A stretch of DNA of 64,000 nt from Tardiphaga sp. (GCA_036561845.1 DATCUS010000223.1:7965-71964), one strand, 5' to 3'. Shown: positions 1 to 15,798, numbered from the stretch's first letter. A program made the numbers and translations. Notes: generated by a model not told the origin, from the letters alone.

Positions 1-1
1 A

Positions 2-49
2 TGGAGCTATCCGCGCGGCGGCTACGGCGTGCTGTTCAAGTTCGGCTGA
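2..49 (+). CDS. 3' end of an unidentified gene entering the window (…WSYPRGGYGVLFKFG*)
   Basis: Frame 2 reads with typical high-GC codons (GGC, TAC, TTC, AAG) to TGA at 47-49. Not in the ORF track. Confidence 0.4.
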   Translation, partial: WSYPRGGYGVLFKFG

Positions 50-151
50 AGCATTTGCGGCCCCGCGGGGCGGCACAAATGCCGGCCCAAACAGAAAATC
101 CCGCGATGCAAGACATCACGGGATTTTCGACTTCAGAACTTCCGCCTGAAT

Positions 152-709
152 TTACTCTGCGGCGACCGCGAGTTCGCCGGCGCCGGCGGCTTCGATGGCC
201 ACCGCCACCGACTGGATAATGGCCGCGAAGCGTACGGCGGTCTGGATCGTCGCCGAGGCGACGCCGGCCTCATGCAGCGCCTTTTCGTGGGCGTCGATGC
301 AGGCGCCGCAGCCGTTGATCGCCGATACAGCCAGCGACCACAGCTCGAAGTCGGCCTTGTCGACGCCGGGACTGGCGATGACGTTCATGCGCAGCCGCGC
401 CGGCATGGTGGCGTAGTCCTTGTTCGACGCCAGATGCACGAAGCGGTAGTAGATGTTGTTCATCGCCATCACCGCCGCGGCCGATTTTGCCGCGGCCATC
501 GCCGCCGGCGACAGATGGCCGGCTGCCACCGATTCCATCGCCGCCAGCACCACCGGATTGCGGGTGGTGATCGCGCAGGCCAGGAACAGGCCGTATTTGG
601 CCTGGGGGCTCAGCGTTTCGTCCGAGGCCATCGACGTCAGGTTGAGCCTGACGTCCTTGGCGAAATCCGGAATGCGGTCCTTCAGCGCGTCGATCGACAT
701 CGAACTCAT
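152..709 (-). CDS. ahpD: Alkyl hydroperoxide reductase AhpD (carboxymuconolactone decarboxylase family)
   Basis: [11 protein letters not shown] CxxC motif and MNNIYYRF. The ATG at 709 overlaps the ahpC stop (ATGA coupling), so the start is trimmed from 754. Confidence 0.92.
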
Positions 710-1260
710 GCCACCTTCAGGGTTTCGCCGCCGGCTTCGCGGTTGCAGGCGCACAATTCATCGGTCTGCAGCGCATCGAGCACGCGCAGCGTGTCCTTGG
801 GGTTGCGGCCGACGTTCAGGTTGGTGGCGTAGACGTGCTGAATGACATTGTCGGGATCGACGATGAAAGTGTAGCGATAGGCGACGCCGTCCGGCGACCG
901 CACGCCGAGGCCGTCGACCAGCGATCCCCGGGTGTCGGCGAACTGCCAGATCGACAGGTGATGCAGATCCTTGTGCTCGCGGCGCCAGGCCAGCTTGCAG
1001 AACTCGTTGTCGGTCGATCCGCCGAGCACGATGGCGTCGCGATCGGCGAAGTCCTTGCCGAGCCGCGCGAACTCGGCGATTTCGGTCGGGCAGACGAAGG
1101 TGAAATCCTTCGGATAGAAGAAGATCACCTTCCACTTGCCGGGGAAGCTCGCCTCGGTCAGCGCCTCGAAGGCGCTCTGGCCTTTCTCTTCCTGGCTGTG
1201 AAAGCCGGGCTTGACGCCGACGATCTCGAACGGCGGCAGCGTGTCTCCAATTCCAAGCAT
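706..1260 (-). CDS. ahpC: Peroxiredoxin AhpC
   Basis: [14 protein letters not shown] peroxidatic Cys motif and C-terminal ELCACNR. Start trimmed to MLGIGDTLP. Confidence 0.93.
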
Positions 1261-1458
1261 CTCTGAACTCCGTGAGGATTTTTGTGGCGAAAGCCATGCT
1301 GGAATCGTTGCAAGCGACGTGCCATCGACCGGCGCCTGGACGATCGCGGCACGGATGACGATGGCGTGCCGCGCGAGTTGATTTGCGTCATATACAGACG
1401 ATCCTCGTCGGTACATATTTCGTATCAAGAGCAATTCACACGCAGCGAGGACAATCAA

Positions 1459-1665
1459 ATGAAGCTCAGCGCACGCAACGTACTTCCCGGCAAGGTCGTG
1501 GCAGTGACCAAGGGAACGACAACCGCCCATGTGAAGGTCGAGCTTGCGTCGGGCCTGATGGTGTTCTCGTCGATTACCAATGAGGCGGTCGACGAGCTCG
1601 CCCTCAAGGTGGGCGACGCCGTATCGGCTGTCATCAAGTCGTCAGACGTGATGATCGGAAAATAG
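1459..1665 (+). CDS. mop: Mop/TOBE molybdate-binding protein (molbindin)
   Basis: MKLSARNVLPGKV…SITNEAVDELALKVGDAVSAVIKSSDV is a single Mop domain. GAGG Shine-Dalgarno at 1447-1450. Confidence 0.88.
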   Translation: MKLSARNVLPGKVVAVTKGTTTAHVKVELASGLMVFSSITNEAVDELALKVGDAVSAVIKSSDVMIGK

Positions 1666-2256
1666 ACGGTCTTCGTCGACTCTTTGCCGATGCATGTCGT
1701 TACGCATGCGAGCCATGCGGAACGATGTTTCCTGCCACCATTCGGCGATGACGTGCCGCTGGCACAGTAATGTCGTGCCGCGGTCGCCGGTGAATCGGGT
1801 CCAGGCATCGAAGCAGCGGTCCGGAACGGCGGTCAGGACCGGGATCCCTGCGATGATCGCCTCGGCGATCTCGCTTCGCAGCCCTTGGCCGGCCGCCTCC
1901 TGCTTCGAGAACTTGTTGATCACGATCAGCGCGACGTCCTGCGCGATCGCGCGCGTCACGGCCTGCGCGGCTTCGGCCAGCCCCGCAGGATCGAGCTTGC
2001 ATGACGTGGCGCCGCGGCCGAGCGGTTGACAGATCGAGATCTGGCGTCCGGTCATCAGGTCGACCATGCCCATGCCGGTCAGGTGACCGTCTTCGTCCTT
2101 GAGGTTGCGTTGCACGACGCCGCCGATTCGCTCGCCGTCGCGCAGCAGGTCGCGGGCCAGATCGGCCAGCAGCGAATCCACGTCGTCATCCGGTCGATAG
2201 AGCACCGCCGCCAGGCGATTTGGATCGATCTCGTTGAAATCCGGCATCATGGTCAT
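1642..2256 (-). CDS. DUF2478 family protein
   Basis: GGVVQ…ICQPLGRGATSCKLDPAGLAEA…INKFSKQEAAGQGLR pattern. This family is often found beside mod genes. Confidence 0.8.
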   Translation of the reverse strand: MTMMPDFNEIDPNRLAAVLYRPDDDVDSLLADLARDLLRDGERIGGVVQRNLKDEDGHLTGMGMVDLMTGRQISICQPLGRGATSCKLDPAGLAEAAQAVTRAIAQDVALIVINKFSKQEAAGQGLRSEIAEAIIAGIPVLTAVPDRCFDAWTRFTGDRGTTLLCQRHVIAEWWQETSFRMARMRNDMHRQRVDEDRLFSDHHV

Positions 2257-2318
2257 GATCCTGATCTGTCGGTGACTCCGAGGCAATCAAGCGTGGTCCG
2301 CGGGTGCCGCCACGCCAC

Positions 2319-3080
2319 TCAGCTCTGCCCATCGAGCACGTAGCCGTATTTTTCGATAATGACGCGCGCTTCGGGTCCTCTGAGGAAGGCGATGAAACCC
2401 GTCGCGGCCTCGTTGCCGGCGCCGCTCTTCAACAGCACCGCGTCCTGGCGGATCGGCGCATAGAGCTCCTGCGGCACCACCCAGCGCGAACCGGTCTCGA
2501 TGCCGGTCAGCTGCGACAGCGCCACGAATCCCAGCTCGGCATTGCCGGTCTCGACGAACTGATAGGCTTGGGTGATGGTTGCGCCCTCGACGATTTTCGG
2601 CAGCAGCGCCTCGCGGAGCTTGAGCGACTCCATGGTCTGTACGGCTGCGGCCCCATAGGGCGCCGCCACCGGGTTGCAGATCGATAGTTTGGCGAAGCTC
2701 GCGGCCTTCAGCGTTTCCGCGCCTTTCACAAGGTTCGGCGTCTTGCTCCACAGCACCAGCCTGCCGATGGCGTAGGTGAAGCGGCTGTCCGACATGGCGA
2801 GACCGTCCTCGATCAGCTTCTTCGGGCGCGCTTCGTCTGCCGACAGGAAGACCTGAAACGGCGCACCCTGGGTGATCTGGCTGTAGAACTGGCCCGCCGA
2901 GCCAAAGCTCAGAACCGCATCGTGACCGGTCTTCTGCTTGAACGCCGCGGCGATCTCCCGGGCGGCGTCGGTGAAATTGGCGGCGACGGCCACGTTGGTC
3001 TGCGCGGTATAGGCGTGGCCGGAGGCCAGCAAAGCGAGCGCGACGCCGGTCAGGACTCGGAACGTCTGTCTGAAATGCAT
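2319..3080 (-). CDS. modA: Molybdate ABC transporter substrate-binding protein
   Basis: Signal peptide, VAVAANF, GSAGQFYSQITQGAPFQVFLSAD and APYGAAA motifs. Start trimmed to MHFRQTF. Confidence 0.92.
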   Translation of the reverse strand: MHFRQTFRVLTGVALALLASGHAYTAQTNVAVAANFTDAAREIAAAFKQKTGHDAVLSFGSAGQFYSQITQGAPFQVFLSADEARPKKLIEDGLAMSDSRFTYAIGRLVLWSKTPNLVKGAETLKAASFAKLSICNPVAAPYGAAAVQTMESLKLREALLPKIVEGATITQAYQFVETGNAELGFVALSQLTGIETGSRWVVPQELYAPIRQDAVLLKSGAGNEAATGFIAFLRGPEARVIIEKYGYVLDGQS

Positions 3081-3334
3081 TATGAACTCCCGCTCGTCGA
3101 CGATGATGACGCGAACCGCGCGAAGGCGACCCGCATGCATTGCCAGCAAGCCTCATGCCGTGTCGGGAATGGTGCGGTGCTTGCTTATTCGCGGCTACAG
3201 TCCTGTAATCTCCGGGCTGCCGCGGCGGGCCAGCGCCACGTTGGTGGAAAAGGCGACATTGATGTCATCAATCCAACATGACCGCGCGATGTCCGATGGC
3301 TGATGTCCGAGGTGAAGGCGCGGCCGGCCACGAA

Positions 3335-4210
3335 ATGAAGAGCAACGAGACAGGACCATCCATGCCGACCATCGCGTCCCGCGCCGATCTCGAGTCCCTG
3401 CTGCTCGACGACGTTCCCTATGGCGATCTGACGACCGATGCGTTGGGGGTCGGTTCTGCTCGCGCCGTCATGCAGTTCACGGCGCGCGATGCGATGGTGC
3501 TGGCGCTGGCCGAGGACGCCGCGGCAATCATCGAGATCGCCGGCGGCAAGGTTGATCTGCTGGCAGCGTCGGGCACGGTGCTGTCGCCGGGCGCGCCGAT
3601 CCTGATCGCGCACGGCCCCGCCGCGGCTTTGCTGCGCGGCTGGAAGGTGGCGCAGACGCTGATCGAGATCTGGTCCGGCGTGGCGACGGCAGCCCGCGGC
3701 ATCGTCGATGCCGCCAGCGCGGTGGCGCCGCAGATCGCGGTGGCCTGCACGCGCAAGACCATCCCGGGGACGAAGCGCTACGCCGTCGCCGCGGTGAAAG
3801 CGGGCGGCGCGGTGATGCACCGGCTCGGCCTGTCCGAGACGGTTCTGCTGTTTCCCGAACATCGCGCCTTTCTCGGCGACGAAGCGCTGGCATCCTTCGC
3901 CGATCGATTGCGGCGTGCTGCACCGGAAAAGAAGCTGGTGATCGAAGTCACCACTGTTGACGAAGCGGTCGCCGGCGCCGATGCGGGCTTCGACGTCATT
4001 CAGGCCGAGAAGTTCCTGCCCGCCCAGATCGCCGCGCTCGTCGCACGGCTGGCGTCCGCGCAACGGCGGCCGGTGATCGCCGCCGCCGGCGGGATCAACG
4101 TCGGAAACGCCGCGGCCTATGCGCAGGCCGGTGCCGATATCCTCGTCACCTCGTCGCCCTATCTGGCGCCGCCGCGGGATGTCCAGGTGCGGATCGGCCC
4201 GGCGGCCTGA
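3335..4210 (+). CDS. modD: ModD protein (NadC/quinolinate phosphoribosyltransferase-like)
   Basis: LLLDDVPYGDLTT, CTRKTIPG, HRLGLSETVLLFPEH and AAGGINVGNAAAYA. Start may be 3335 or 3362. Confidence 0.88.
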   Translation: MKSNETGPSMPTIASRADLESLLLDDVPYGDLTTDALGVGSARAVMQFTARDAMVLALAEDAAAIIEIAGGKVDLLAASGTVLSPGAPILIAHGPAAALLRGWKVAQTLIEIWSGVATAARGIVDAASAVAPQIAVACTRKTIPGTKRYAVAAVKAGGAVMHRLGLSETVLLFPEHRAFLGDEALASFADRLRRAAPEKKLVIEVTTVDEAVAGADAGFDVIQAEKFLPAQIAALVARLASAQRRPVIAAAGGINVGNAAAYAQAGADILVTSSPYLAPPRDVQVRIGPAA

Positions 4211-4225
4211 CGGCCGCCCGAATGC

Positions 4226-5095
4226 TTACAGGATCGACGCAAGAGACTGCCCGTGCATGTCGATGCTGAGGCCGTCGAGCGCCAGGTCGTCGAGTTCGCC
4301 GCCCATGGCCTTGATGCTTTCCTCGCGAATCAGCGACATCAGCCCGCGGCGCAATGCGAGGAATTCCGACGACATCATCATCGACTGCTGCCGCGGGCGC
4401 TCCAGCGGGATGGCGATCTCGGCCTTGATGGTGCCGGGCCGCGCCGTCATGCAATAAACCCGGTCCGACAGGAAGATCGCCTCGTCGATGTCGTGGGTGA
4501 CGAACAGCACCGAGATCTTCAGCCGCTGCCACATGTTGGTGAGGATCTGCTGCATGATCACCCGGGTCTGCGCGTCGAGCGCGCCGAACGGCTCGTCGAG
4601 CAGCAGGACCTTCGGCCCGGTGGCCAGCGCGCGGACGATGCCGACGCGCTGCTTCATGCCGCCGGACAGGCTGTCCGGATACTTGTTCTCGAACGCGGTG
4701 AGTCCGGCGAGGCCGAGCAAGGTGCGTGCGGCGCGGTCGCGGCTCGATCTGTCGAGGTGTTTCATCTTCAGGCCGAACTCGACATTGCCCTTCACCGTTT
4801 TCCAGGGAAACAGCGAGTACTGCTGGAACACCATGCCGCGGTCGGCGCTGGGGCCGTCGATGTCTTCGCCGTCGAGCGTGACCTCGCCCGCGGTTGGCTT
4901 GAGAAAGCCGGCGACGGCATTGAGCAGGGTCGACTTGCCGCAGCCGGACGGACCGACGATGGAGACGAACTCGCCGGGATTGACGTGGATCGATGCGTCG
5001 CAGACCGCTTCGACGGGGCCGTCGAGGGTGGGATAGCTCAATCCGAAATTGCGGACCTCGACGTGGCCGGTGGTCGGCGGGGATGATGCGATCAT
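4226..5095 (-). CDS. NitT/TauT-family ABC transporter ATP-binding subunit
   Basis: Walker A GPSGCGKST, signature LSGGMKQR, Walker B LLLDEPFGALD. ATGA overlap with the permease stop. Confidence 0.92.
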   Translation of the reverse strand: MIASSPPTTGHVEVRNFGLSYPTLDGPVEAVCDASIHVNPGEFVSIVGPSGCGKSTLLNAVAGFLKPTAGEVTLDGEDIDGPSADRGMVFQQYSLFPWKTVKGNVEFGLKMKHLDRSSRDRAARTLLGLAGLTAFENKYPDSLSGGMKQRVGIVRALATGPKVLLLDEPFGALDAQTRVIMQQILTNMWQRLKISVLFVTHDIDEAIFLSDRVYCMTARPGTIKAEIAIPLERPRQQSMMMSSEFLALRRGLMSLIREESIKAMGGELDDLALDGLSIDMHGQSLASIL

Positions 5096-5961
5096 TTGCG
5101 GTTCCATGGCATGAGAACGCGGCCCAGCCCGCGGATCAGTGCGCTCGATCCGAGGCCGAGGACGCCGATGCAGATCATGCCCAGCGCGATGTCAGCATAT
5201 TGCACCAGGGAATAGGCTTCCCAGGTGAAGTAGCCGATGCCGAACTGGCCGGAGATCATCTCGGCGGCGATCAGCGAGACCCATGCGACACCCATGCCGA
5301 CGGTGAGGCCGGTGAAGATGTGCGGCAGCGAGGCCGGGAAGTACACTTCACGGAAAATCGACAGTTCGCGTGCGCCGAGGCATTGCGAGGCCCGCACCAG
5401 CACCGGATCGACCAGCGACATGCCGTGCAGCGTGTTGACGAGGATTGGAAAGAACGCGCCGAGGAAGGTGATGTAGACGATGCTCTGCTCGTTGGTCGGC
5501 CACAGCATGATCGCCATCGGCACCCAGGCGATGGCCGGGATCGGGCGCAGCACTTCCGTGATAGGGAACACGAATTCGTGGATCAGCTTGAAGCGCCCCA
5601 TCACCAGGCCGAGGGGAACGGCGACGATCGCCGCCAGCGAAAAGCCGAGCAGGATGCGCCGGCAGCTCAGGATCACATGCATGAAGAACTTCGAATCATG
5701 CATCGCGCGCTGCAGGCTTTCATAGACCGCGGCGGGCGACGGCACGTTGGTAAAGCGAACGAAAAAAACGACCCGGTGGGTGGTGAGCAGATGCCACGCC
5801 GTCAGAAACAACAGCAGTGAGATAGTGCCGATCAGGGCGGTTCGCAGGCCGCCGCGGTTCACGAGAAACCAGCGCTTCAGATATAGCGCGGCTCCTGCTG
5901 GCGGTCGTCCCTGCGCCGCTGCCGGTGGTGGCGACCACGCGGCCGGATCGGGCAGCGTCAT
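5092..5961 (-). CDS. NitT/TauT-family ABC transporter permease
   Basis: Hydrophobic helices, LRPIPAIAW and an EAA-like loop (RASQCLGA). Start trimmed to MTLPDPAAW. Confidence 0.9.
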   Translation of the reverse strand: MTLPDPAAWSPPPAAAQGRPPAGAALYLKRWFLVNRGGLRTALIGTISLLLFLTAWHLLTTHRVVFFVRFTNVPSPAAVYESLQRAMHDSKFFMHVILSCRRILLGFSLAAIVAVPLGLVMGRFKLIHEFVFPITEVLRPIPAIAWVPMAIMLWPTNEQSIVYITFLGAFFPILVNTLHGMSLVDPVLVRASQCLGARELSIFREVYFPASLPHIFTGLTVGMGVAWVSLIAAEMISGQFGIGYFTWEAYSLVQYADIALGMICIGVLGLGSSALIRGLGRVLMPWNRK

Positions 5962-5998
5962 GGCCTGCCGCTCTTTTCGAATCGCGGAGCTTTCCACG

Positions 5999-7423
5999 TC
6001 AACCTCCACTGACTGCCGATTTGAGCGCGTCGTCGAAGCCGAGAACCTTGCCCTTGATCTTGACGGCATAGGCCTCGGCATCCTTCTTCAGCAGGAAGGG
6101 GGCGATATCGCTTTTGTCCGCGCCGACCGCGAAGAAGGCCTGGTCGGCGAACAGCTTGATGCCGCGGGCGGTGTCGAACACGTAAGCGACGTTGATCTTC
6201 TGCCCCCTGGCCTTCATGTCGGCGTAGGCGCCGAGCGTGCAGGCCGCGCTGCTGAACGGCTCGATGGCGCCGCCCTCGACCCAGACCTCGCCGGCCTTGC
6301 GCGGATCGGTGATCGGCTTCTTGCAGAACCTGTCCTCGCCCTTCACTTCGTAATTTTGCGTGCTCTTCAGCTGGGCGTCGTAGTCCATGTTGAGTTCGGC
6401 ATAGGCCTTGCGGATGTAGCTGTCGTCGACCCACTTCTTCGGGTCGAATTCCTTCATCCGGCCCAACGCCTGCAGCACCTTGACGTCGGTGGCCGCGGCG
6501 TCGATCAGCGCCGGCTTGATGGTCGGGTCGGTGGTCATGTTGCCGCCCGGGCCCAGGAAGATATAGACCACCTCCTTGTTGATGCCGGTCCATTCCTGGA
6601 TCTTCTCGGCGGCGAGCTTGGGATCGGCGCGCAGCCAGGCATTGGCGGCGATCACCGCCTTCAGATAGGCGACCACCACTTCAGGATATTTTTCGGCGAA
6701 GTCGGTGCGCACCACGACGCCATGCCAGGTCGGCAGGTTGGTCTCGACGCCATCGAAGATTTTTCGCGCGAAGCCGCGGAACGGAAGCAGTTCGGCGAAC
6801 GGCACGAAGTCGGCGTGCGCGTCGATCTTCTTTTCCTGCAGGTTGGTCGAGCCGACCTCCGGGCTCTGGCTGACCAGCTGGAAGTAGTCTGCCGGCCAGC
6901 CCTTGTCCTGCATGGCCTTCAGCACCATGCCATGCGCGGCCGAGCCGAACGGTACGCTGACCAGCTTGCCCTTGAGATCCGACAATTCGTAGTAGGGCGA
7001 GTCCTTGTGGACCACCATGCCATTGCCCGAACCGTCGAGACTATAGGCGGCCACCGCGATCAGCCGGCTCTTGCTTTCCGGATTACTCTCGAAGGTGAAG
7101 CCGTTCACCACCAGCGGATAGTCGCCCATGGCGCCGAACTGCAGCTTGTTGGCCATCATGCCGTTGGTCACCGGCGGGCCGGAGGTGAAGTTCTGCCATT
7201 CGTAGTCGAACTTGATGTTGGCGTATTTGCCGTCCTTCGGCAGATACTTGTCCATCAGCTTCAGCTGGCGGATGATCACCCCGGTGGTTGCCGTGTTGGT
7301 CGTGGTATCCTGGGTGCCGATTCCGATCGTCACTGTGGTTTGCGCATGCGCCTGACTGGCGATCAGCAGAGCCGCTCCGGCGCAGGCGCTGTAAAATGTA
7401 CGGTATCCCAAATTGCGAATCAT
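5999..7423 (-). CDS. Sulfonate/nitrate-type ABC substrate-binding protein with a C-terminal NosL-like extension
   Basis: Signal peptide, FTSGPP and VSVPFGSAAHG (SsuA/NMT1-like). At 474 aa it is about 130 aa longer than a plain SsuA. Confidence 0.85.
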   Translation of the reverse strand: MIRNLGYRTFYSACAGAALLIASQAHAQTTVTIGIGTQDTTTNTATTGVIIRQLKLMDKYLPKDGKYANIKFDYEWQNFTSGPPVTNGMMANKLQFGAMGDYPLVVNGFTFESNPESKSRLIAVAAYSLDGSGNGMVVHKDSPYYELSDLKGKLVSVPFGSAAHGMVLKAMQDKGWPADYFQLVSQSPEVGSTNLQEKKIDAHADFVPFAELLPFRGFARKIFDGVETNLPTWHGVVVRTDFAEKYPEVVVAYLKAVIAANAWLRADPKLAAEKIQEWTGINKEVVYIFLGPGGNMTTDPTIKPALIDAAATDVKVLQALGRMKEFDPKKWVDDSYIRKAYAELNMDYDAQLKSTQNYEVKGEDRFCKKPITDPRKAGEVWVEGGAIEPFSSAACTLGAYADMKARGQKINVAYVFDTARGIKLFADQAFFAVGADKSDIAPFLLKKDAEAYAVKIKGKVLGFDDALKSAVSGG

Positions 7424-7526
7424 GGCAGACCCTTTCGGTGGTTGAGACGCCTTCGGGTATTGCCCCTTGTTTTCCGTATCCTTTGTCGATCTCGCCGATC
7501 GAGCAAACGTCCTCGCGTGTTGGCGG

Positions 7527-7538
7527 TCGATTAGTTGC
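7527..7538 (-). promoter_or_regulatory. Putative operator GCAACTAATCGA upstream of the ABC operon
   Basis: Matches the palindrome GCAATTAATTGC at 8894-8905 at 9 of 12 positions. About 105 bp upstream of the binding-protein start. Confidence 0.45.
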
Positions 7539-7606
7539 CGTGATTGGATCCGTTGCTTAGTCCTTGAGCATTCTCACCGTGCCAAGCCATATCCGTAGGC
7601 ATCGGG

Positions 7607-8389
7607 TCAATCGCCCTGGCCCTTCATCTCCTGCAGCAGGTCGGGACGGCGCACGATGATGTGGGACTTTCGCGAGCTGACGATATCCTTGTCCTGCATG
7701 CGCTTCAGGCTGATGGTCACCCACTGGCGGGTGGCGCCGACCATGTGGGCGAGATCGGCGTGGGTGAATGCCGAGCCGATCAGGATGCCTTCGGGATCTT
7801 CCACACCGTAGAGTTCGACCAGATGCAGCAGCAGGTGCGCCAGCCGTTCGGTGATCGAGCGGGTGCCGAGCATCTGCGCCAGCGCCGAGTAGCATTTGCC
7901 CTTGAACGTCAGTCCCTCGATCAGGCCGATGGCGAGATTGGGTACCTCGACCACCAGCGCCCGCAACTCATGGCCGGGGAGCTGCACCACGCTGCTGTTG
8001 CTGGTGGCGACGCCGGACCACTGATGCACGCCGGCGCCGAACACTTCCGGGCCGCCGACGAAATTGCCGGGATGCCAGTAGGCAAGGGTGATCTCGCGTG
8101 CCGAGGGCGCGGTGTAGAACACCCGGATGCGACCCGTCTCGATCAGATAGATACCATCGTGCTTCGCGCCCTGGTTGAACAGGGTCTGCCCGCGGTACAG
8201 CACCTTGCGACGGCCGTGCTTGAGCACGGTTTCGCGCTCACGCAGCGAGAGCGCATCGAACAGCGACGGCGCGCCGCCCAGCGAACGTGCGCTTTCCGTC
8301 AGCAACAGGGATTGTCCGCTGATCGATGCTGGTCGCGTCGGCTTGACGGCCGCGCCGGACGGCGCAGTGGTGGCTGCTAAAAGCTGCAT
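7607..8389 (-). CDS. Crp/Fnr family transcriptional regulator
   Basis: cNMP-like beta-roll and HTH (THADLAHMVGATRQWVTISL). No Fnr Cys cluster and no canonical cAMP-binding Arg motif. Confidence 0.9.
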   Translation of the reverse strand: MQLLAATTAPSGAAVKPTRPASISGQSLLLTESARSLGGAPSLFDALSLRERETVLKHGRRKVLYRGQTLFNQGAKHDGIYLIETGRIRVFYTAPSAREITLAYWHPGNFVGGPEVFGAGVHQWSGVATSNSSVVQLPGHELRALVVEVPNLAIGLIEGLTFKGKCYSALAQMLGTRSITERLAHLLLHLVELYGVEDPEGILIGSAFTHADLAHMVGATRQWVTISLKRMQDKDIVSSRKSHIIVRRPDLLQEMKGQGD

Positions 8390-8498
8390 GGCGCACTCCA
8401 GACTTCAGAATTAGTCTAAGTGCGCAGCAAGCCCCGTGCCAGTCTCTATTCAGCAGGGAAAGAACAAGATTCTTGCTGTCGAACAGGGACTTGCAAGT

Positions 8499-8846
8499 TC
8501 AATCATGCGCGGCGCCCGGTTCGCGCCGGCCGAGGCTCAGCAGCAGCGCCCATGGATAGATGCCGCGCGCGTGACCATCCGAGAAGGCGATGTTGAGCGC
8601 GTAACCGCCGATCGGCGACACCTCGGTGATCGCAAGGCCCGCGAACTGTTCGGGAAACACGCCATCGATGCGGGCGCGCAGGCAATGCGCGCATTTGCAT
8701 GCGCTGCGCAGGCGCTCGGCGCTTATCCGGACGCGGACATCATCCGGGAAGGCGAGATCGAGACACCGCAGGTCGTCGCTGACCGCAATGCCCCGCGGGG
8801 CCGCGATGATCCTTGCCAAGGTGGACGGTGCCGCGGTCTGGGTCAT
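8499..8846 (-). CDS. DUF971 / GBBH-like N-terminal domain protein
   Basis: LRSACKCAHC (CxCxxC) and GGYALNIAFSDGHARGIYPW signature. Confidence 0.88.
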   Translation of the reverse strand: MTQTAAPSTLARIIAAPRGIAVSDDLRCLDLAFPDDVRVRISAERLRSACKCAHCLRARIDGVFPEQFAGLAITEVSPIGGYALNIAFSDGHARGIYPWALLLSLGRREPGAAHD

Positions 8847-8893
8847 GCATCGATCTCCGCACACATGTCATCATCTGCAGCCGTGTTCGCCCA

Positions 8894-8963
8894 GCAATTA
8901 ATTGCGCGCGGGCGACCGCGGCGACGCAAAGTTGTTGTTTCGCGGCGGCTGACAACTAATTGC
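8894..8963. promoter_or_regulatory. Two operator-like palindromes in the DUF971 / flavoprotein divergent promoter
   Basis: Perfect GCAATTAATTGC at 8894-8905 and ACAACTAATTGC at 8952-8963, both AT-rich in a GC-rich context. Confidence 0.55.
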
Positions 8964-9054
8964 TATCGCGTCCCGCTGGCCTGCCTATCCTCGATGCTCA
9001 GAGCCATTCCCCTGCTGGAATGGAACCTGCGCGGAACCAGACGAGGAATCAGCG

Positions 9055-10797
9055 ATGGCCATGGACGACATTATCGACGGTCTTTCCGAAGTGTCCTGCG
9101 ATGTTCTGGTGATTGGCGGCGGCACCGCCGGGCCGATGGCGGCGCTCAAGGCCAAGCTGAAAAATCCCAAGGCGAACGTGGTGCTGCTGGAGAAGGCCAA
9201 CGTCAAGCGCTCCGGCGCGATCTCCATGGGCATGGACGGTCTCAACAACGCGGTGATCCCCGGCTACGCCACGCCCGAGCAATACACCAAGGAAATCACC
9301 ATCGCCAATGACGGCATCGTCGACCAGAAGGCGGTCTACAAATACGCCGAGAAATGCTACTCGATCATCGAGGAGCTCGACAGCTTCGGCATCCGCTTCC
9401 TGAAGAACGAGAACGGCGACTATGCCGTCAAGAAGGTGCATCACATCGGCACCTATGTGCTGCCGATGCCCAATGGCGAGACCGTCAAGAAGGCGCTGTA
9501 CCGGCAGTTGCGGCGTGCGCGCATCCTGATCTCCAACCGTTACATGGCGACGCGGCTGCTGACCGGGAAAGACGGTCGCATCGCCGGCGCCATCAGCGTC
9601 AACACCCGCACCGCGGAAATCCTGGTGATCAAGGCCAAGGCGGTGATCCTGTGCATGGGCGCCGCCGGCCGGCTCGGCCTGCCGACCTCGGGCTATATGT
9701 TCGGCACTTACGAGAACGCCGCGAATTCCGGCGACGGCTACGCCATGGCCTATCATGCGGGCGCGGCGCTCGCGAACCTCGAATGCTTCCAGATCAATCC
9801 GCTGATCAAGGACTACAACGGCCCGGCCTGCGCCTATGTGGCCGGTCCCTACGGCGCCTTCACGGCCAACAACGAGGGCGCGCGGTTCATCGAATGCGAC
9901 TACTGGTCCGGCCAGATGATGCTGGAATTCTATAACGAGCTGCAGTCCGGCAAGGGGCCGGTGTTCCTGCAGCTCAACCATCTGCACGAAGACACCATCA
10001 GCGAGATCGAAACCACCCTGCACAAGGTGGAGCGGCCGACGCGTGGTCTGTTCCATGAAGGGCGTACCACGGACTATCGCCAGGAACCGATCGAGATGCA
10101 CATCTCGGAAATCGGCTTCTGCTCCGGCCACAGCGCGTCGGGCGTGTTCGTCGATGAATTCGCCCGCACCACCGTGCCCGGCCTCTACGCCGCCGGCGAC
10201 ATGGCCAGCGTACCGCACAACTACATGCTCGGCGCCTTTACCAACGGCTCGGTGGCCGGCGAACATGCGATGGACTATGCCGACAATGTCGACTTCGCCG
10301 ATTTCGACGCCGCCGATGTCGCCAGGGAGCGCGATCGCGTGATGGCGCCGACGAAGCGCGAGGATGGCATTCCGCCGAACCAGATCGAGTACAAGGCGCG
10401 CCGCCTGGTCAACGACTATCTGCAGCCACCAAAGGTCAGCCGCAAGTTCGAGATCGGCCAGAAGCGGCTCGGTGAGGTGCGCGAGGACATGGAAACGCGG
10501 ATGATCGCGCGCAACTCCCATGAGTTGCTGCGCGCGCTGGAAACCCAGTCGATCGTCGACTGCGCCGACATGGCAGCGCATGCCTCGCTCTATCGCACCG
10601 AGAGCCGTTGGGGCCTCTACCACCTGCGCACCGATTATCCCGAGAAGAACGACGAGGACTGGTTCTGCCATACCCTGCTGAGCAAGAAGGATGGCCGGAT
10701 GAGCAGCGAGAAGCGCGCGGTCGAACCCTATATCGTGCCGATCGCCGACGACGAGAAGGATCTCTATGACAAGCAGCGCATCCGCGCCAGCGCCTGA
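9055..10797 (+). CDS. AprA/AsfA-like flavoprotein (fumarate reductase/succinate dehydrogenase flavoprotein superfamily)
   Basis: VLVIGGGTAG FAD motif, KRSGAISMGMDGLN (AprA-like ERSGAV), GLYAAGD, RTESRWGLYH. Confidence 0.88.
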   Translation: MAMDDIIDGLSEVSCDVLVIGGGTAGPMAALKAKLKNPKANVVLLEKANVKRSGAISMGMDGLNNAVIPGYATPEQYTKEITIANDGIVDQKAVYKYAEKCYSIIEELDSFGIRFLKNENGDYAVKKVHHIGTYVLPMPNGETVKKALYRQLRRARILISNRYMATRLLTGKDGRIAGAISVNTRTAEILVIKAKAVILCMGAAGRLGLPTSGYMFGTYENAANSGDGYAMAYHAGAALANLECFQINPLIKDYNGPACAYVAGPYGAFTANNEGARFIECDYWSGQMMLEFYNELQSGKGPVFLQLNHLHEDTISEIETTLHKVERPTRGLFHEGRTTDYRQEPIEMHISEIGFCSGHSASGVFVDEFARTTVPGLYAAGDMASVPHNYMLGAFTNGSVAGEHAMDYADNVDFADFDAADVARERDRVMAPTKREDGIPPNQIEYKARRLVNDYLQPPKVSRKFEIGQKRLGEVREDMETRMIARNSHELLRALETQSIVDCADMAAHASLYRTESRWGLYHLRTDYPEKNDEDWFCHTLLSKKDGRMSSEKRAVEPYIVPIADDEKDLYDKQRIRASA

Positions 10798-10832
10798 CCT
10801 TCGCAATCCCGCACTGACGATGGAGTCGACCG

Positions 10833-11066
10833 ATGCCTCTCGCAAGTTATCAAACATCCGTTCCGGTGGTCGTCGACGATGCCAAGTGCATCGCCGACAA
10901 GGGCTGCACGGTCTGCGTCGACGTCTGTCCGCTCGACGTGCTGCGGATCAGCGACATGACCGGCAAGGCGTTCATGGCCTATGACGAATGCTGGTACTGC
11001 ATGCCGTGCGAGGCGGATTGCCCGACCGGCGCCGTCAAGGTCAACATTCCCTATTTGCTGAGGTGA
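10833..11066 (+). CDS. 2[4Fe-4S] ferredoxin (AprB/AsfB-like)
   Basis: CIADKGCTVCVDVCP and ECWYCMPCEADCP clusters. Confidence 0.92.
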   Translation: MPLASYQTSVPVVVDDAKCIADKGCTVCVDVCPLDVLRISDMTGKAFMAYDECWYCMPCEADCPTGAVKVNIPYLLR

Positions 11067-11069
11067 CGC

Positions 11070-12044
11070 ATGGCAGATCCGTTCGAATCCTATGACGACC
11101 TGGACGACGTCGACGACCGCCTGAATGCCGCCGATCCCGGCGAGCGCCGTGTCGCCATCATCGCGCTCGGCCATTCCGGCGATCCGGCGGCCGTGGAGCA
11201 TCTCGACCGCATGACCGCAGATCCGGACGCCGGCGTTCGCCAGCAGGTGGCGCTGGCGCTCGGCGAGTTCGACGGGCCCGAGGCCGCTGCCGCCTTGGTG
11301 AAGGTCGTGGTCGATCCGGAGCAGGCGGTGGCAAACGCCGCGGCCGATGCCATGGCCGAGCTGAAGGATCCGGCGAGCGCCGATGCGATCCTGCCGCTGG
11401 TCGGCCACGCCCACGCTTTCGTGCGCATGGCGGCGCTGCGCGCCTTGAAGGAGTTGCGGCGCAAGGACTCGCTGAAGCCGGCTCTCGACGCGCTGCAGGA
11501 CGTGGATGCATCCGTGCGCGTGCAGGCCATCGGGGTCATCGGTTTTCTCAAGCTGGAAGAGGCGATCCCGGCGCTGACCGCGGCGACGGCCGATGCCGAT
11601 GCCCATGTGCGTCGCGCCGCGGTCAGCGCGCTGGCGTTTTCCCACATGAAGTCCGCCGCGGAATCCATCACCCGTGCGCTGACGGACGCCGACTGGATGG
11701 TGCGGGAGATTGCCGCCGAGACCCTCGGCAGCAACGTCAACGGCGTGCAGGCCGCCGATGCGCTGATCAAGGCCACGACCGATGAATTCTGGCAGGTGCG
11801 GCTGAAGGCGGTACGCAGCCTTGGCAGGATGCGGATCGCGCGCGCCGTGCCGGCGATCGGCGCCTGTATCGCGCATCAGCAGGCCAATCTGCGCAAGGAG
11901 GGCGCGGCGGCGCTGGGCGAGATTGCGGACCCCGCCGGCCAACAGTTCCTTACGCCGATCATGGATGACCCGGATCCGGAAGTCCGCAAGAACGCCCGCT
12001 GGGCAATGCAGAAGATCCTGTCGAACAGCGCCGCCTCAGGTTGA
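11070..12044 (+). CDS. HEAT-repeat (PBS lyase-like) protein
   Basis: Repeated DxDxxVRxxAxxALG units along the whole length. Starts 3 bp after the ferredoxin stop. Confidence 0.9.
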   Translation: MADPFESYDDLDDVDDRLNAADPGERRVAIIALGHSGDPAAVEHLDRMTADPDAGVRQQVALALGEFDGPEAAAALVKVVVDPEQAVANAAADAMAELKDPASADAILPLVGHAHAFVRMAALRALKELRRKDSLKPALDALQDVDASVRVQAIGVIGFLKLEEAIPALTAATADADAHVRRAAVSALAFSHMKSAAESITRALTDADWMVREIAAETLGSNVNGVQAADALIKATTDEFWQVRLKAVRSLGRMRIARAVPAIGACIAHQQANLRKEGAAALGEIADPAGQQFLTPIMDDPDPEVRKNARWAMQKILSNSAASG

Positions 12045-12277
12045 GCCCCGGTGCCACATCCGGCAGCGGCGCGCGCAGCGGCCGCGGCCGGCCCGGGCGG
12101 CGAACGCAGCCGACGCCTGGGGAAATCCAGCGCGCCCCGGCGGCGACCGGACACAATCCCGCATTCTTACGGTTGGCGGCGTTAACGAGCGTGAATTGCC
12201 GCCGGTGCTAGCCTTTGGTCGGGCCGACGTCTTGCTGATCGACACGCGAGCAAAGCGCGGCAGAAAAGGCGGACAAC

Positions 12278-12481
12278 ATGCAGACCATCGAAACAAACTG
12301 CGCCAAGGAAGCCAGGCGGTGCCGTTTTGCCCAATTCTCCGGCCGCAGTACGACCCTGATCCTCAGCGGCGCGAAGGTGAGTGGCGTCGTCTGGGCGGTG
12401 AAGCCTGACCAGCCGAAGGCGCCGTCGCGCTGGACCATCACCATTATCCCCGAGCAGTCCGCCAATGTGAATCTCGGCTGA
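12278..12481 (+). CDS. Small hypothetical protein (67 aa)
   Basis: GGA upstream of the ATG, plausible codon usage, same strand as and downstream of the HEAT gene. Confidence 0.55.
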   Translation: MQTIETNCAKEARRCRFAQFSGRSTTLILSGAKVSGVVWAVKPDQPKAPSRWTITIIPEQSANVNLG

Positions 12482-12501
12482 GGCGACGGCGCTCTGCGCG
12501 G

Positions 12502-14595: not shown

Positions 14596-14877
14596 GCTGT
14601 CACGATAGCATAAGACATTCCGCAGGGAAGCGCCGGCCCCCCTGCGCGGAGCGCACCATCCGGCTGTCGGACGGTGAAAATTCGGCGACAGCCCCGATGC
14701 GCGCAACCCATCGTTGAACATCGTCGCAATACGATCTTCCTCGGGCGCAATGAGATGCCGAAGGCAGGGGCAAGGTCGACCGGCGTTCCTGCCCTTCTCA
14801 GATGCGCCAGCGGCGTCTAGTCTCCTGCGTTGCTACGGCCAGCGCCGGGGACACGGCGCGGATCAGGGAGTTGAACC

Positions 14878-15627: not shown

Positions 15628-15798
15628 GGCCGCCGGCGGGCGGCGCCGGAGCATGGCGGCCATAACTTATGCGGCGATGGTAATCCCCGGGGGGTGGTCG
15701 GATCGTTTTTTCGCGCTATGCTCCGATCTGCGTCGCACTGATGACGCATATCGACAACAGTCGGTCGAGGCGCCGCCAGAGCGCCGGGAGGAGGTCTC

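What the first reader, a model, noticed from the sequence alone, without database searches (positions are those of the whole stretch)
1459..12481. Candidate uncharacterised redox/uptake system: AprAB/AsfAB-like flavoprotein-ferredoxin, HEAT, DUF971, ABC importer, Crp regulator and Mo genes
Seen: two divergent arms with a shared palindromic motif. One arm is flavoprotein, 2[4Fe-4S] ferredoxin and HEAT protein; the other is DUF971, Crp/Fnr and a TauABC-like importer, followed by mod genes. Known: the flavoprotein/ferredoxin pair resembles APS reductase AprAB and the AsfAB aryl-desulfonation proteins of Pseudomonas putida S-313, which work with SsuD/SsuE and a LysR regulator. No ssuD/ssuE, sat, dsr or membrane anchor occurs in this window. 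Inference: a soluble reductase or dehydrogenase acts on an imported, unknown oxyanion or organosulfur substrate, and has its own maturation factors and a Mo link.
Basis: partly seen in the sequence, partly recalled or inferred. Interest (0 to 1): 0.75.

Follow-up and report, generated by a model that had tools for sequence, protein, structure and literature searches.

The report
Uncharacterised APS-reductase-like enzyme with own importer
Eight of the listed genes form a real, widely shared but functionally untested unit: an importer for a small, probably sulfur-containing compound, plus a flavin/iron-sulfur enzyme distantly related to sulfate-reducing APS reductase; the neighbouring molybdenum genes are unrelated neighbours.

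Summary
The conserved unit is 4226-12044: ABC ATPase, permease, long SsuA/TauA-like binding protein, Crp-family regulator and DUF971 on one strand; flavoprotein, 77-aa 2x[4Fe-4S] ferredoxin and HEAT protein on the other. All eight co-occur in 68-79 of 80 alphaproteobacterial loci. The core recurs in Acinetobacter, Cupriavidus, Paraburkholderia, cyanobacteria and Streptomyces, where flavoprotein and HEAT are fused. The palindrome GCAAYTAATTGC is a conserved operator upstream of three transcription units.

Two parts of the reading fail. The mod genes and the Mo-oxidoreductase are next to the module in 0-1 of 80 loci. The flavoprotein is not an AsfA orthologue: it is 24% identical to the primer-defined asfA product of C. 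metallidurans. It belongs to NCBIfam PRK08275. This is a tight clade separate from AprA and from the archaeal PAPS reductase (PDB 8A8O), its closest solved relative.

The clade keeps AprA's Asn and His near the flavin. It replaces four AprA-clade arginines and gains two clade-specific invariant cysteines, so APS/PAPS is unlikely to be the substrate. Related loci often add a ferredoxin-NADP reductase and YeiH/TauE-type sulfate/sulfite exporters. Best guess: NADPH- and ferredoxin-driven release of sulfite from an imported organosulfur compound. The substrate is unknown.

The parts
4226..5107 (-). ABC transporter ATP-binding subunit (NitT/TauT group)
   Evidence: Pfam ABC_tran 119 bits. Best NCBIfam hits are SaoA, nitrate and taurine ATPases, all below cut-off. 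Co-located with the flavoprotein in 72 of 80 loci.
5092..6081 (-). ABC transporter permease (likely true start at 5961, after the binding-protein stop)
   Evidence: Pfam BPD_transp_1. NCBIfam nitrate, SaoP, TauC and SsuC permeases, all below cut-off. Present in 69 of 80 loci. The start is inferred from the ORF reading.
5999..7423 (-). Periplasmic substrate-binding protein, 474 aa: SsuA/TauA-like body plus a family-wide C-terminal NosL-like domain of about 110 aa; Sec signal peptide
   Evidence: TIGR01728 SsuA_fam 115.8 bits (cut-off 163.5). Pfam NMT1 and NosL (24.5 bits). The only solved relatives are TauA and SsuA proteins. The C-terminal domain is conserved from Streptomyces to Acinetobacter, but its two Cys occur only in the window type. 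Present in 69 of 80 loci.
7527..7538 (.). Operator copy GCAACTAATCGA upstream of the importer operon
   Evidence: The identical 12-mer is found upstream of the binding-protein gene in about 40 Bradyrhizobium/Rhodopseudomonas-type loci.
7607..8389 (-). Crp/Fnr-family transcription regulator (cNMP-binding-like domain + HTH_Crp_2), effector unknown
   Evidence: Pfam. It has one Cys only, so no FNR-type cluster. Present in 68 of 80 loci. The palindrome is absent from the GntR-only loci of Cupriavidus, Paraburkholderia and Streptomyces.
8499..8864 (-). DUF971 / GBBH-like N-terminal domain protein with a CxCxxC motif (likely start ATG 8846 behind GGAG)
   Evidence: Pfam PF06155 66 bits. Solved relatives are only uncharacterised proteins. 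Present in 72 of 80 loci. Replaced positionally by Mrp/NBP35 in cyanobacteria.
8894..8905 (.). Operator copy, perfect palindrome GCAATTAATTGC, upstream of DUF971
8952..8963 (.). Operator copy ACAACTAATTGC, about 95 bp upstream of the flavoprotein start
   Evidence: The same 12-mer lies at the same distance from the flavoprotein start in about 45 loci.
9055..10797 (+). FAD flavoprotein of NCBIfam NF006131 (PRK08275), AprA-like, 580 aa
   Evidence: NF006131 1074.8 bits (cut-off 587). AprA models are below cut-off. Best solved relative is 8A8O alpha, 208 bits. Forms its own clade in the tree. Active-site comparison.
10833..11066 (+). 77-aa 2x[4Fe-4S] ferredoxin (AprB-like core without the AprB tail)
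   Evidence: Pfam Fer4_7 and others. Matches aprB profile positions 2-65 of 132 at 29.6 bits. Eight Cys in two cluster motifs. Present in 79 of 80 loci at 74-99% identity.
11070..12044 (+). HEAT-repeat protein, likely scaffold or partner of the flavoprotein
   Evidence: Pfam HEAT_2 173 bits. Matches the C-terminal part of NF010374, the flavoprotein-HEAT fusion model. Fused to the flavoprotein in Streptomyces. Present in 77 of 80 loci.

Best explanation
Window 4226-12044 is one copy of a self-contained, horizontally mobile importer-plus-enzyme module. A periplasmic SsuA/TauA-like binding protein and its ABC permease and ATPase import a small anionic compound, most likely an organosulfur compound (a sulfonate or another X-SO3 compound). 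In the cytoplasm an AprA-derived FAD protein, fed through a 2x[4Fe-4S] ferredoxin, acts on it. The most likely reaction is a reductive cleavage that releases sulfite. The HEAT protein is a bound partner or scaffold. DUF971 probably helps Fe-S maturation. The electron source is probably NADPH through a ferredoxin-NADP reductase; this genome encodes that reductase elsewhere (contig C156). The local Crp-family regulator controls the three transcription units through the palindrome GCAAYTAATTGC. Shown here: gene content, co-conservation, operator conservation, family placement, and loss of AprA's arginines. Inferred: direction of electron flow, sulfite as product, and the roles of HEAT and DUF971. 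Unknown: the substrate. The mod genes and the Mo-oxidoreductase are unrelated neighbours.
For: Co-conservation of eight genes in 68-79 of 80 loci in several gene orders. The same core occurs in Acinetobacter, Cupriavidus, Paraburkholderia, Nostoc, Pseudanabaena and Streptomyces. The flavoprotein-HEAT fusion is common in Streptomyces. Family placement: NF006131 at 1075 bits, and a tight clade with SH-aLRT 99 that is separate from the AprA/PAPS-reductase clade. Asn64 and His359 (A. fulgidus Asn74 and His398) and the C-terminal RxExRW motif are retained. Sulfur context: the nearest solved binding proteins are all taurine or sulfonate binders. Sulfonate or sulfur genes lie next to the module in Cupriavidus, Paraburkholderia, Nostoc, Pseudanabaena and Acinetobacter. 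YeiH-type putative sulfate exporters lie beside it in 29 of 86 loci, and TauE in two. Electron donor: a ferredoxin-NADP reductase-like gene is adjacent in 51 of 86 loci, between the two operator copies in Bradyrhizobium-type loci. This genome's copy is 81% identical and lies elsewhere. Operator: 175 of 233 motif matches fall in 6% of the bases. The motif is absent from the three GC-rich loci that have only a GntR regulator.
Against: There is no experimental datum for any member. Four literature searches found no characterisation. The catalytic Arg265 of AprA is Leu here, and three more AprA-clade arginines are lost, so AprA-type sulfite-adduct chemistry is not assured. The regulators are substrate-type (Crp-like, GntR/UTRA), not the usual sulfur-starvation LysR regulators. 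The binding protein and permease score below every curated cut-off, and nitrate-type models score about as well as sulfonate-type ones. Streptomyces loci have no sulfur genes nearby. The window itself lacks the Fpr and exporter genes that suggest direction and product.
Confidence: 0.5

Rival explanations
1. The module acts on a non-sulfur substrate. The AprA-like protein would be a dehydrogenase or reductase for an imported carboxylate, amine or nitrogen oxyanion, as SdhA, NadB and TcuA are in the same superfamily. The sulfur genes nearby would be coincidental.
For: Nitrate-type NCBIfam models score as high as sulfonate-type ones for the permease and ATPase. The motif ECFQINPL resembles the SdhA/FrdA 'EFxQFHPT' pattern more than AprA's 'EHRFIPFR' (compared from my knowledge of the SdhA motif). 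The AprA-clade arginines are lost, and invariant Glu80 and Glu220 are gained. The regulators are catabolic-type. The Streptomyces locus has no sulfur genes.
Against: Every solved relative of the binding protein binds taurine or sulfonates. Sulfur-related neighbours recur in five unrelated lineages, and sulfate/sulfite exporter families recur beside the module. The nearest characterised enzymes are both sulfite-releasing.
Confidence: 0.25
2. AsfAB-type function: the flavoprotein and ferredoxin are only an electron-transfer chain that feeds a separate oxygenase (SsuD or similar) for arylsulfonate desulfonation, as proposed for Pseudomonas putida S-313.
For: The gene pattern is the same: flavoprotein, small ferredoxin, binding protein (PMC4267179). 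The genome has an SsuD on contig C112.
Against: The protein is 24% identical to the primer-defined AsfA of C. metallidurans, which scores 56 bits on NF006131 and lies outside the AprA-like radiation. The asfA primers match neither the window nor the Cupriavidus PRK08275 locus. No oxygenase is co-conserved with the module. The flavoprotein keeps substrate-site residues of AprA.
Confidence: 0.08
3. It is an assimilatory APS or PAPS reductase of the AprAB type, like the Methanothermococcus enzyme.
For: The best solved relative is 8A8O alpha at 208 bits, followed by A. fulgidus AprA. Asn64 and His359 are kept.
Against: Four arginines that are uniform in all four AprA/PAPSR-clade sequences compared are F/Y, L, M and A here. 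The PAPS loop is replaced by a longer VKKVHH-GxYVLPMP loop. The protein scores below the AprA cut-offs and sits in a separate clade. The genome has a CysH-type reductase. The module always travels with a sulfonate/nitrate-type importer, never with sat.
Confidence: 0.04
4. The module handles a thiophilic metal or an organometallic/metal-thiolate compound rather than a simple sulfonate.
For: The binding protein has a NosL/MerB-like domain. Marine-type loci add Sco1, PCuAC, a TlpA-like thioredoxin, a dihaem cytochrome c and a membrane protein with a CCxxP motif. The ATPase and permease resemble SaoA and SaoP of the proposed organometallic SAO system (bioRxiv 10.1101/2022.07.06.499078).
Against: The NosL-like domain has no conserved Cys, Met or His across the family. 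The Sco1/PCuAC set is present in only 14-19 of 80 loci and is absent from the window. The SaoA/SaoP scores are below cut-off, and that paper itself calls the ATPase similarity generic to the nitrate/sulfonate/taurine group.
Confidence: 0.08

Closest known systems
AprA-type PAPS reductase of Methanothermococcus thermolithotrophicus (MtPAPSR, PDB 8A8O; PMC10322725)
   Same: Best solved relative: 208 bits over residues 12-539, about 40% identical in that alignment by my reading. FAD alpha subunit plus a 2x[4Fe-4S] beta subunit, soluble, no membrane anchor. The flavin-site Asn, the His and the C-terminal RxExRW motif are shared.
   Different: Separate clade. The PAPS-specifying loop (Lys120/Arg121/Ser122) is replaced by a longer loop. 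Four arginines are replaced, and invariant Cys244 and Cys259 are added. It travels with an ABC importer, a HEAT protein and DUF971 instead of ATP sulfurylase, APS kinase and PAP phosphatase.
Dissimilatory APS reductase AprAB (A. fulgidus 1JNR/2FJA)
   Same: Same superfamily and two-subunit logic. Asn74 and His398 equivalents are kept.
   Different: Scores 283.7 against a cut-off of 557 (NF005331) and 157.5 against 641.75 (TIGR02061). Changes: Arg265 to Leu250, Trp234/Tyr235 to Tyr219/Glu220, Tyr95 to Glu80 (A. fulgidus numbering partly from my knowledge of that structure). The ferredoxin lacks the AprB tail. No sat, qmo or aprM is in the module.
AsfA/AsfB of the arylsulfonate (asfRABC) system, Pseudomonas putida S-313; Rmet_4334/5 in C. 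metallidurans CH34 (PMC4267179, PMC2864759)
   Same: Flavoprotein of the fumarate-reductase superfamily followed by a small ferredoxin and linked to a periplasmic binding protein. Linked to organosulfur use.
   Different: Only 24% identity. A different family and a different part of the tree. LysR regulator rather than Crp or GntR. The asfA marker primers do not match.
SsuABC / TauABC sulfonate and taurine importers (NitT/TauT family)
   Same: Same transporter family. TauA and SsuA are the only solved relatives of the binding protein.
   Different: Below every curated cut-off. The binding protein is about 150 residues longer, with a conserved C-terminal NosL-like domain. Some related loci add a second membrane protein.
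NCBIfam NF006131 (PRK08275) and NF010374 (PRK13800), named only 'fumarate reductase/succinate dehydrogenase flavoprotein subunit'
   Same: The window protein is a full member (1074.8 bits, cut-off 587). The HEAT protein matches the C-terminal part of the PRK13800 fusion model.
   Different: The family name is a placeholder. The protein is closer to AprA than to SdhA or FrdA, and no function has been reported in the searched literature.

Membership tests
NCBIfam NF006131 / PRK08275 flavoprotein family | Whole-protein score above the curated cut-off (587 bits) | tested here: met
   1074.8 bits over model positions 6-575 of 577. It is the only such gene in the genome.
APS reductase alpha subunit AprA (NF005331, TIGR02061) | Score above the curated cut-offs | tested here: not met
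   283.7 against 557, and 157.5 against 641.75.
APS reductase alpha subunit AprA (NF005331, TIGR02061) | Falls inside the AprA clade in a tree | tested here: not met
   The AprA/MtPAPSR clade (SH-aLRT 100) excludes it. The window protein sits in a separate clade of 8 rows (SH-aLRT 99).
APS reductase alpha subunit AprA (NF005331, TIGR02061) | Flavin-site Asn74 and His398 (A. fulgidus numbering) | tested here: met
   Asn64 and His359 are invariant in 55 clade sequences and in the four AprA-clade rows.
APS reductase alpha subunit AprA (NF005331, TIGR02061) | Catalytic/substrate-binding Arg265 and the other arginines shared by the AprA-clade sequences; Trp234 | tested here: not met
   Leu250, Phe/Tyr245, Met288 and Ala370 replace Arg, and Tyr219 replaces Trp. 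Leu250 and Tyr219 are the same in all 55 clade sequences; Met288 and Ala370 allow at most one exception; position 245 is Phe in 46 and Tyr in 9.
APS reductase alpha subunit AprA (NF005331, TIGR02061) | AprB partner with a long C-terminal tail; association with sat, qmo or aprM | tested here: not met
   The ferredoxin is 77 aa and covers aprB profile positions 2-65 of 132. None of these genes is among the co-conserved neighbours. The whole genome was not searched for sat or qmo.
MtPAPSR-type PAPS reductase (8A8O) | PAPS-specifying loop residues Lys120/Arg121/Ser122 (PMC10322725) | tested here: not met
   The aligned loop is VKKVHHIGTYVLPMPNG, which is longer and differently charged.
AsfA (asfA marker gene of arylsulfonate desulfonation) | Orthology to the primer-defined asfA product | tested here: not met
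   The asfAF1all primer finds one 549-aa ORF followed by a ferredoxin gene in C. metallidurans CH34. That protein is 24% identical to the window protein, scores 56 bits on NF006131 and branches with a NadB-like protein. That replicon holds no PRK08275-type gene. That this ORF is Rmet_4334 rests on the paper's naming and the primer match, not on a locus tag.
AsfA (asfA marker gene of arylsulfonate desulfonation) | Published asfA primers match | tested here: not met
   No match with up to 3 mismatches in the flavoprotein or ferredoxin genes. No match with up to 5 mismatches in the module genes of the other loci tested.
SsuA/TauA sulfonate-binding proteins | Score above the curated cut-off of TIGR01728 / TIGR01729 | tested here: not met
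   115.8 against 163.5, and 62.1 against 304.25. TauA and SsuA are nevertheless the only solved relatives, with E from 1.6e-12 to 3e-4.
SsuA/TauA sulfonate-binding proteins | Sulfonate-contacting residues of the binding pocket | not tested
   I could not map the pocket residues reliably without coordinates.
Crp/Fnr transcription regulators | cNMP-binding-like domain plus Crp-type HTH | tested here: met
   PF00027 58 bits and PF13545 54 bits.
Crp/Fnr transcription regulators | FNR-type N-terminal Cys cluster, or membership of a named equivalog (CRP, Fnr, NtcA, FixK) | tested here: not met
   One Cys in 260 residues. All named models are far below cut-off. The operator is neither TTGAT-N4-ATCAA nor TGTGA-N6-TCACA.

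The most novel reading that the evidence does not exclude
The module encodes an undescribed, oxygen-independent desulfonation (or other X-SO3 cleavage). The enzyme would derive from APS reductase, with the nucleotide pocket rebuilt around two invariant cysteines. Electrons would flow from NADPH through Fpr and the ferredoxin, and the sulfite or sulfate product would leave through YeiH/TauE-type exporters. This would be a third route to sulfite from organosulfur compounds, beside oxygenases and glycyl-radical lyases. It would be present in about 5% of Pseudomonadota and in streptomycetes and cyanobacteria.
Probability: 0.33. Interest if true: 0.8.

Novelty: new variant of a known kind. Interest (0 to 1): 0.6.

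Why it matters
If the enzyme does free sulfite from an imported compound, it would add a new reaction to the organosulfur cycle in soil, freshwater and marine aerobes. Carriers include rhizobia, Acinetobacter baumannii, streptomycetes and cyanobacteria. It would also give a real name to a large family now labelled 'fumarate reductase/succinate dehydrogenase flavoprotein subunit'. The work here has a practical consequence as well: this family must not be counted as asfA or as aprA in gene-centric surveys. For this particular window, the molybdenum genes should be dropped from the model.

Tried and rejected
1. AsfA orthology. I tested it with the published primers and by locating the real asfA in C. 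metallidurans CH34. Rejected.

2. Mo link. Tested by tblastn and blastn of the mod genes and the Mo-oxidoreductase against 80 loci. Rejected.

3. A 4-Cys metal or cluster site in the flavoprotein (C244, C259, C356, C503). C356 and C503 also occur in wider relatives that lack C244 and C259, so only the C244/C259 pair is clade-specific. The geometry could not be checked.

4. AlphaFold2 model of the flavoprotein from a 21-row alignment. Mean pLDDT was 54.5 and the active-site segments were below 50, so I used it neither for geometry nor for a fold search.

6. Promoter and terminator scans gave nothing usable. Rfam found no family in 1-16000.

7. Literature. Four searches for a characterised member found none. 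Two papers that looked promising, on Gordonia and on Rhodococcus, were unrelated.

8. Link to the SAO organometallic system through the SaoA/SaoP hits. I read the preprint; the similarity is generic to the transporter group.

9. Link to the cyanobacterial pANL/CysR sulfur regulon. The search gave no evidence, and I dropped it.

Full report
**What is in the window**

The ORF list and the Pfam/NCBIfam scans give this gene order.

| Coordinates | Strand | Gene |
|---|---|---|
| 152-754 | - | AhpD |
| about 706-1290 | - | AhpC-like |
| 1459-1665 | + | Mop |
| 1642-2286 | - | DUF2478 |
| 2319-3149 | - | ModA |
| 3278-4210 | + | ModD |
| 4226-5107 | - | ABC ATPase |
| 5092-6081 (likely start 5961) | - | ABC permease |
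| 5999-7423 | - | 474-aa binding protein |
| 7607-8389 | - | Crp-family regulator |
| 8499-8864 (likely start 8846, behind GGAG) | - | DUF971 |
| 9055-10797 | + | 580-aa flavoprotein |
| 10833-11066 | + | 77-aa 2x[4Fe-4S] ferredoxin |
| 11070-12044 | + | HEAT-repeat protein |
| 12045-12501 | . | 456-bp spacer |
| 12502-14721 | - | molybdopterin oxidoreductase |
| 14878-15627 | + | SDR |

**Which genes belong together**

A scan of species-representative genomes returned 80 loci encoding a flavoprotein 75-96% identical to the window's. All of them are from Alphaproteobacteria. I searched these loci by tblastn with the window's proteins.

| Protein | Loci with it next to the flavoprotein (of 80) |
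|---|---|
| Ferredoxin | 79 |
| HEAT protein | 77 |
| DUF971 | 72 |
| ABC ATPase | 72 |
| Permease | 69 |
| Binding protein | 69 |
| Crp regulator | 68 |
| ModA | 0 |
| ModD | 0 |
| Mo-oxidoreductase | 1 (23% identity) |

- Most of the missing cases among the top seven are at contig ends.
- At least four different gene orders occur, which argues for selection on the set rather than inherited order.
- The DNA of the mod region, of the oxidoreductase and of the 12045-12501 spacer matches none of the 80 loci.
- The unit is therefore 4226-12044, and the 'Mo link' is an accident of this genome.

Outside the Alphaproteobacteria the same core recurs.

- **Acinetobacter baumannii, Cupriavidus pinatubonensis, Paraburkholderia:** GntR/UTRA regulator, flavoprotein, ferredoxin, long binding protein, permease, ATPase, HEAT; Acinetobacter and Paraburkholderia also have DUF971.
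- **Nostoc and Pseudanabaena:** the core lies on plasmids.
- **Streptomyces:** flavoprotein and HEAT protein are one polypeptide of about 910-950 residues, next to GntR, ferredoxin and the importer.

In an even sample of 301 Pseudomonadota genomes, 15 carry the family. A genome of the window's own genus lacks it. This is a patchy, mobile accessory module with an unusually conserved enzyme: 215 of 580 positions are invariant, with at most one exception, across 55 sequences from three phyla.

**The palindrome**

Within the window the pattern GCAAYTAATTGC with two mismatches is not significant by itself: 9 matches against 4.6 expected. The three best copies, however, all lie in the three promoter regions (8894, 8952, 7527).

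- Across the 80 loci, 175 of 233 matches fall within 300 bp upstream of DUF971, the flavoprotein or the binding-protein gene. Those zones make up 6% of the bases.
- The matches often lie at the same distance and with the same sequence. ACAACTAATTGC sits about 80-100 bp before the flavoprotein start. GCAACTAATCGA sits before the binding-protein gene.
- The motif is absent from the Cupriavidus, Paraburkholderia and Streptomyces loci, which have a GntR regulator and no Crp. In AT-rich Acinetobacter it occurs only inside coding sequence.
- It is therefore a conserved operator and most likely the site of the co-conserved Crp-family protein.
- That protein has a single cysteine, so it carries no FNR-type cluster. 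It matches no named Crp/Fnr equivalog. Its effector is unknown.
- One caveat applies: AT-rich words are commoner in intergenic DNA of GC-rich genomes. Positional and sequence identity across genera is the stronger argument.

**What the flavoprotein is**

- It is a full member of NCBIfam NF006131/PRK08275 (1074.8 bits, cut-off 587). That family's name, 'fumarate reductase/succinate dehydrogenase flavoprotein subunit', is a placeholder.
- AprA models come next but stay below cut-off (283.7 against 557). SdhA and NadB models score far lower.
- The best solved relative is the alpha subunit of the AprA-type PAPS reductase of Methanothermococcus thermolithotrophicus (8A8O, 208 bits over residues 12-539). 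A. fulgidus AprA follows (enzyme described in PMC10322725).
- At 50% clustering of 1.8 billion proteins, the family collapses into very few representatives at 58% identity or more. Identity then drops to about 40% and then into a large AprA-like radiation at about 30-38%.

- The window protein forms a clade (SH-aLRT 99) with the Labrenzia, Acinetobacter, Cupriavidus, Nostoc, Pseudanabaena and Streptomyces proteins.
- That clade sits inside a wider PRK08275-like group.
- The AprA/PAPS-reductase clade is separate (SH-aLRT 100).
- SdhA-like and NadB-like proteins of the same genome are distant.

**It is not AsfA**

- The published asfA primers (PMC9694294 supplement) match neither the window nor the Cupriavidus PRK08275 locus.
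- C. metallidurans CH34 is the organism in which AsfA/AsfB are named Rmet_4334/5 (PMC2864759). In its second replicon the forward primer finds one site, inside a 549-aa ORF followed by a 111-aa ferredoxin gene.
- That protein is 24% identical to the window protein. It scores 56 bits on NF006131 and branches with a NadB-like protein, outside the AprA-like radiation (both are long branches, so only the exclusion is safe).
- That replicon has no PRK08275-type gene.
- The AsfAB resemblance is thus one of gene pattern, not of family.

**Active site**

I aligned clade members with 8A8O and three AprA-clade representatives.

*Retained:*
- Asn64 (A. fulgidus Asn74).
- His359 (A. fulgidus His398).
- The C-terminal R514-x-E516-x-R518-W519 motif.

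*Replaced, and invariant in the clade:*
- Tyr95 becomes Glu80.
- Trp234/Tyr235 become Tyr219/Glu220.
- Arg265 becomes Leu250.
- Three further arginines shared by all four AprA-clade sequences become Phe/Tyr245, Met288 and Ala370.
- The loop that specifies PAPS in 8A8O is replaced by a longer VKKVHH-GxYVLPMP loop.

*Gained:*
- Two cysteines, Cys244 and Cys259, are invariant in the clade and absent from AprA. They flank the position of Arg265 and of the ribose-contacting Val273/Gly274.

The A. fulgidus numbering and residue roles come partly from my knowledge of 1JNR/2FJA and are not a tool result. APS or PAPS is therefore very unlikely to be the substrate. The pocket is less cationic, and a thiol-based step is possible. 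The genome also has a CysH-type reductase and an SsuD elsewhere, so neither sulfate assimilation nor ordinary alkanesulfonate use depends on this module.

**Accessory proteins**

- The ferredoxin has eight cysteines in two cluster motifs and covers only the ferredoxin core of AprB.
- The Streptomyces fusion indicates that the HEAT protein works bound to the flavoprotein. It has no His-Glu metal motifs of the deoxyhypusine-hydroxylase kind (my reading).
- DUF971 carries CxCxxC, the zinc site of the gamma-butyrobetaine hydroxylase N-domain as I recall it.
- In both cyanobacterial loci the DUF971 place after the HEAT gene is taken by an Mrp/NBP35 Fe-S carrier (DUF59 plus the NUBPL-type ATPase). 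Plant HCF101 joins these very domains with DUF971 (from my own knowledge). A role in Fe-S delivery is therefore a reasonable inference.

**Direction and product: evidence from relatives only**

- In 51 of 86 loci a 257-aa ferredoxin-NADP reductase-like gene lies beside the module (Pfam FAD_binding_6 + NAD_binding_1; best NCBIfam hit PRK10926 at 146 bits, below cut-off).
- In Bradyrhizobium/Rhodopseudomonas-type loci it sits directly upstream of the flavoprotein gene, between the two operator copies. In marine loci it is divergent from DUF971.
- The window lacks it. Its two operator copies are only 58 bp apart. The genome's copy (81% identical) is on contig C156, away from any module gene.
- YeiH-family 'putative sulfate export' genes flank the module in 29 of 86 loci. 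TauE/SafE genes flank it in Pseudanabaena and in Rhodopseudomonas sp. P2A-2r.
- In the window, the mod genes lie where many Bradyrhizobium loci have the YeiH-like gene.
- Sulfur genes adjoin the module in several lineages:
  - Cupriavidus: SsuA-like binding protein, NtaA/DmoA monooxygenase.
  - Paraburkholderia: 3-mercaptopropionate dioxygenase, rhodanese.
  - Nostoc: two sulfonate-binding proteins, metX.
  - Acinetobacter: a TSUP transporter.
- The only solved relatives of the binding protein are TauA and SsuA.

Together these suggest that NADPH-derived electrons pass through Fpr and the ferredoxin to the flavin, and that sulfite or sulfate is a product. None of this has been shown experimentally.

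**What argues against the sulfur reading**

- The regulators are of the substrate-responsive type.
- Nitrate-type transporter models score as well as sulfonate-type ones.
- AprA's catalytic arginine is gone.
- Streptomyces loci have no sulfur neighbours.
- A non-sulfur substrate therefore remains a serious rival. I give it about one chance in four.

**Other variants**

Marine and some soil loci add a GntR regulator, a TlpA-like thioredoxin, a membrane protein with a CCxxP motif between permease and ATPase, Sco1, PCuAC and a dihaem cytochrome c (14-19 of 80 loci). With the NosL-like domain of the binding protein, these hint at thiol or copper chemistry in the periplasm. However, the NosL-like domain has no conserved metal ligands, and the window has none of these genes.

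**Earlier notes of this scan**

Several earlier agents met the same module in Methylorubrum, Cupriavidus and other genomes and also called it an uncharacterised AprAB-like reductase with its own importer. I had reached the family placement and the 8A8O relation before reading them. I re-tested the arginine loss and the operator myself. These notes are not independent evidence.

**What could not be done**

- The AlphaFold model was too poor to use (mean pLDDT 54.5).
- Literature searches found no characterised member.

**Verdict**

- The module is a catalogued but unstudied variant of the AprAB kind. It is widespread and already seen repeatedly in this scan, and the window's copy is a minimal version.
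- It is worth experimental work, because one binding assay and one sulfite-release assay could name a large protein family.

Noticed in passing
window 8865-9054; L104 4486-5259; L007-L047 about 9120-9900: Most Bradyrhizobium/Rhodopseudomonas relatives carry a ferredoxin-NADP reductase-like gene between DUF971 and the flavoprotein, flanked by the two operator copies. The window and a few other loci (L014-L017, L020) lack it. The window genome's copy is on contig C156.
   Followed up: partly
L103 8937-9857 and 17229-17984; L022-L047 about 3000-4300; L096 13285-15089: YeiH-family putative sulfate exporters (29 of 86 loci) and TauE/SafE exporters lie beside the module in relatives. In the window the mod genes occupy the position next to the ATPase gene instead.
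   Followed up: partly
L060 13001-14334 and 17156-20534; L081 15615-18732: Marine-type loci insert a GntR/UTRA regulator, a TlpA-like thioredoxin, a 238-aa membrane protein with a vicinal CCxxP motif (no Pfam match), Sco1/SenC, PCuAC and a dihaem cytochrome c into the same operon. No explanation yet.
   Followed up: partly
window 5999-6337 (C-terminal domain of the binding protein): The NosL-like C-terminal domain is a hallmark of all module binding proteins, from Streptomyces to Acinetobacter. The two cysteines (FCKKP...SSAACT) exist only in the window-type proteins, so a conserved metal site is unlikely.
   Followed up: partly
window flavoprotein residues 244, 259 (also 356, 503): Cys244 and Cys259 are invariant in 55 clade sequences and absent from AprA. 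They flank the position of AprA's Arg265 and ribose-binding loop. Cys356 and Cys503 are also invariant but occur in wider relatives. The geometry is untested.
   Followed up: partly
L093 (C. metallidurans CH34 second replicon, 928678-929820 region): The real asfA/asfB pair (a 549-aa flavoprotein and a 111-aa ferredoxin) belongs to a family with no NCBIfam model above cut-off. It is preceded by a 343-aa ORF with a faint fatty-acid-hydroxylase-like hit. AsfA surveys and PRK08275 annotations should not be merged.
   Followed up: partly
window 1459-4210: A molybdenum gene group without modB/modC nearby: Mop (68 aa), DUF2478 (NTPase-like), ModA, and a divergently oriented ModD. It is not conserved next to the module in any relative.
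   Followed up: no
window 12502-14721: A 739-aa molybdopterin oxidoreductase, below the cut-off of every named NCBIfam model (best is Fdh-alpha at 242 bits against 666). The true start is probably the Met before 'NSVPRIDIRHSTCPHDCPSAC'. No Tat signal is evident.
   Followed up: no
window 12045-12501: A 456-bp stretch with no convincing ORF, no Rfam match and no similarity to any related locus. It may be the junction of a rearrangement.
   Followed up: partly
window 152-1290: An AhpD/AhpC-type peroxiredoxin pair lies at the window start. It is unrelated to the module.
   Followed up: no
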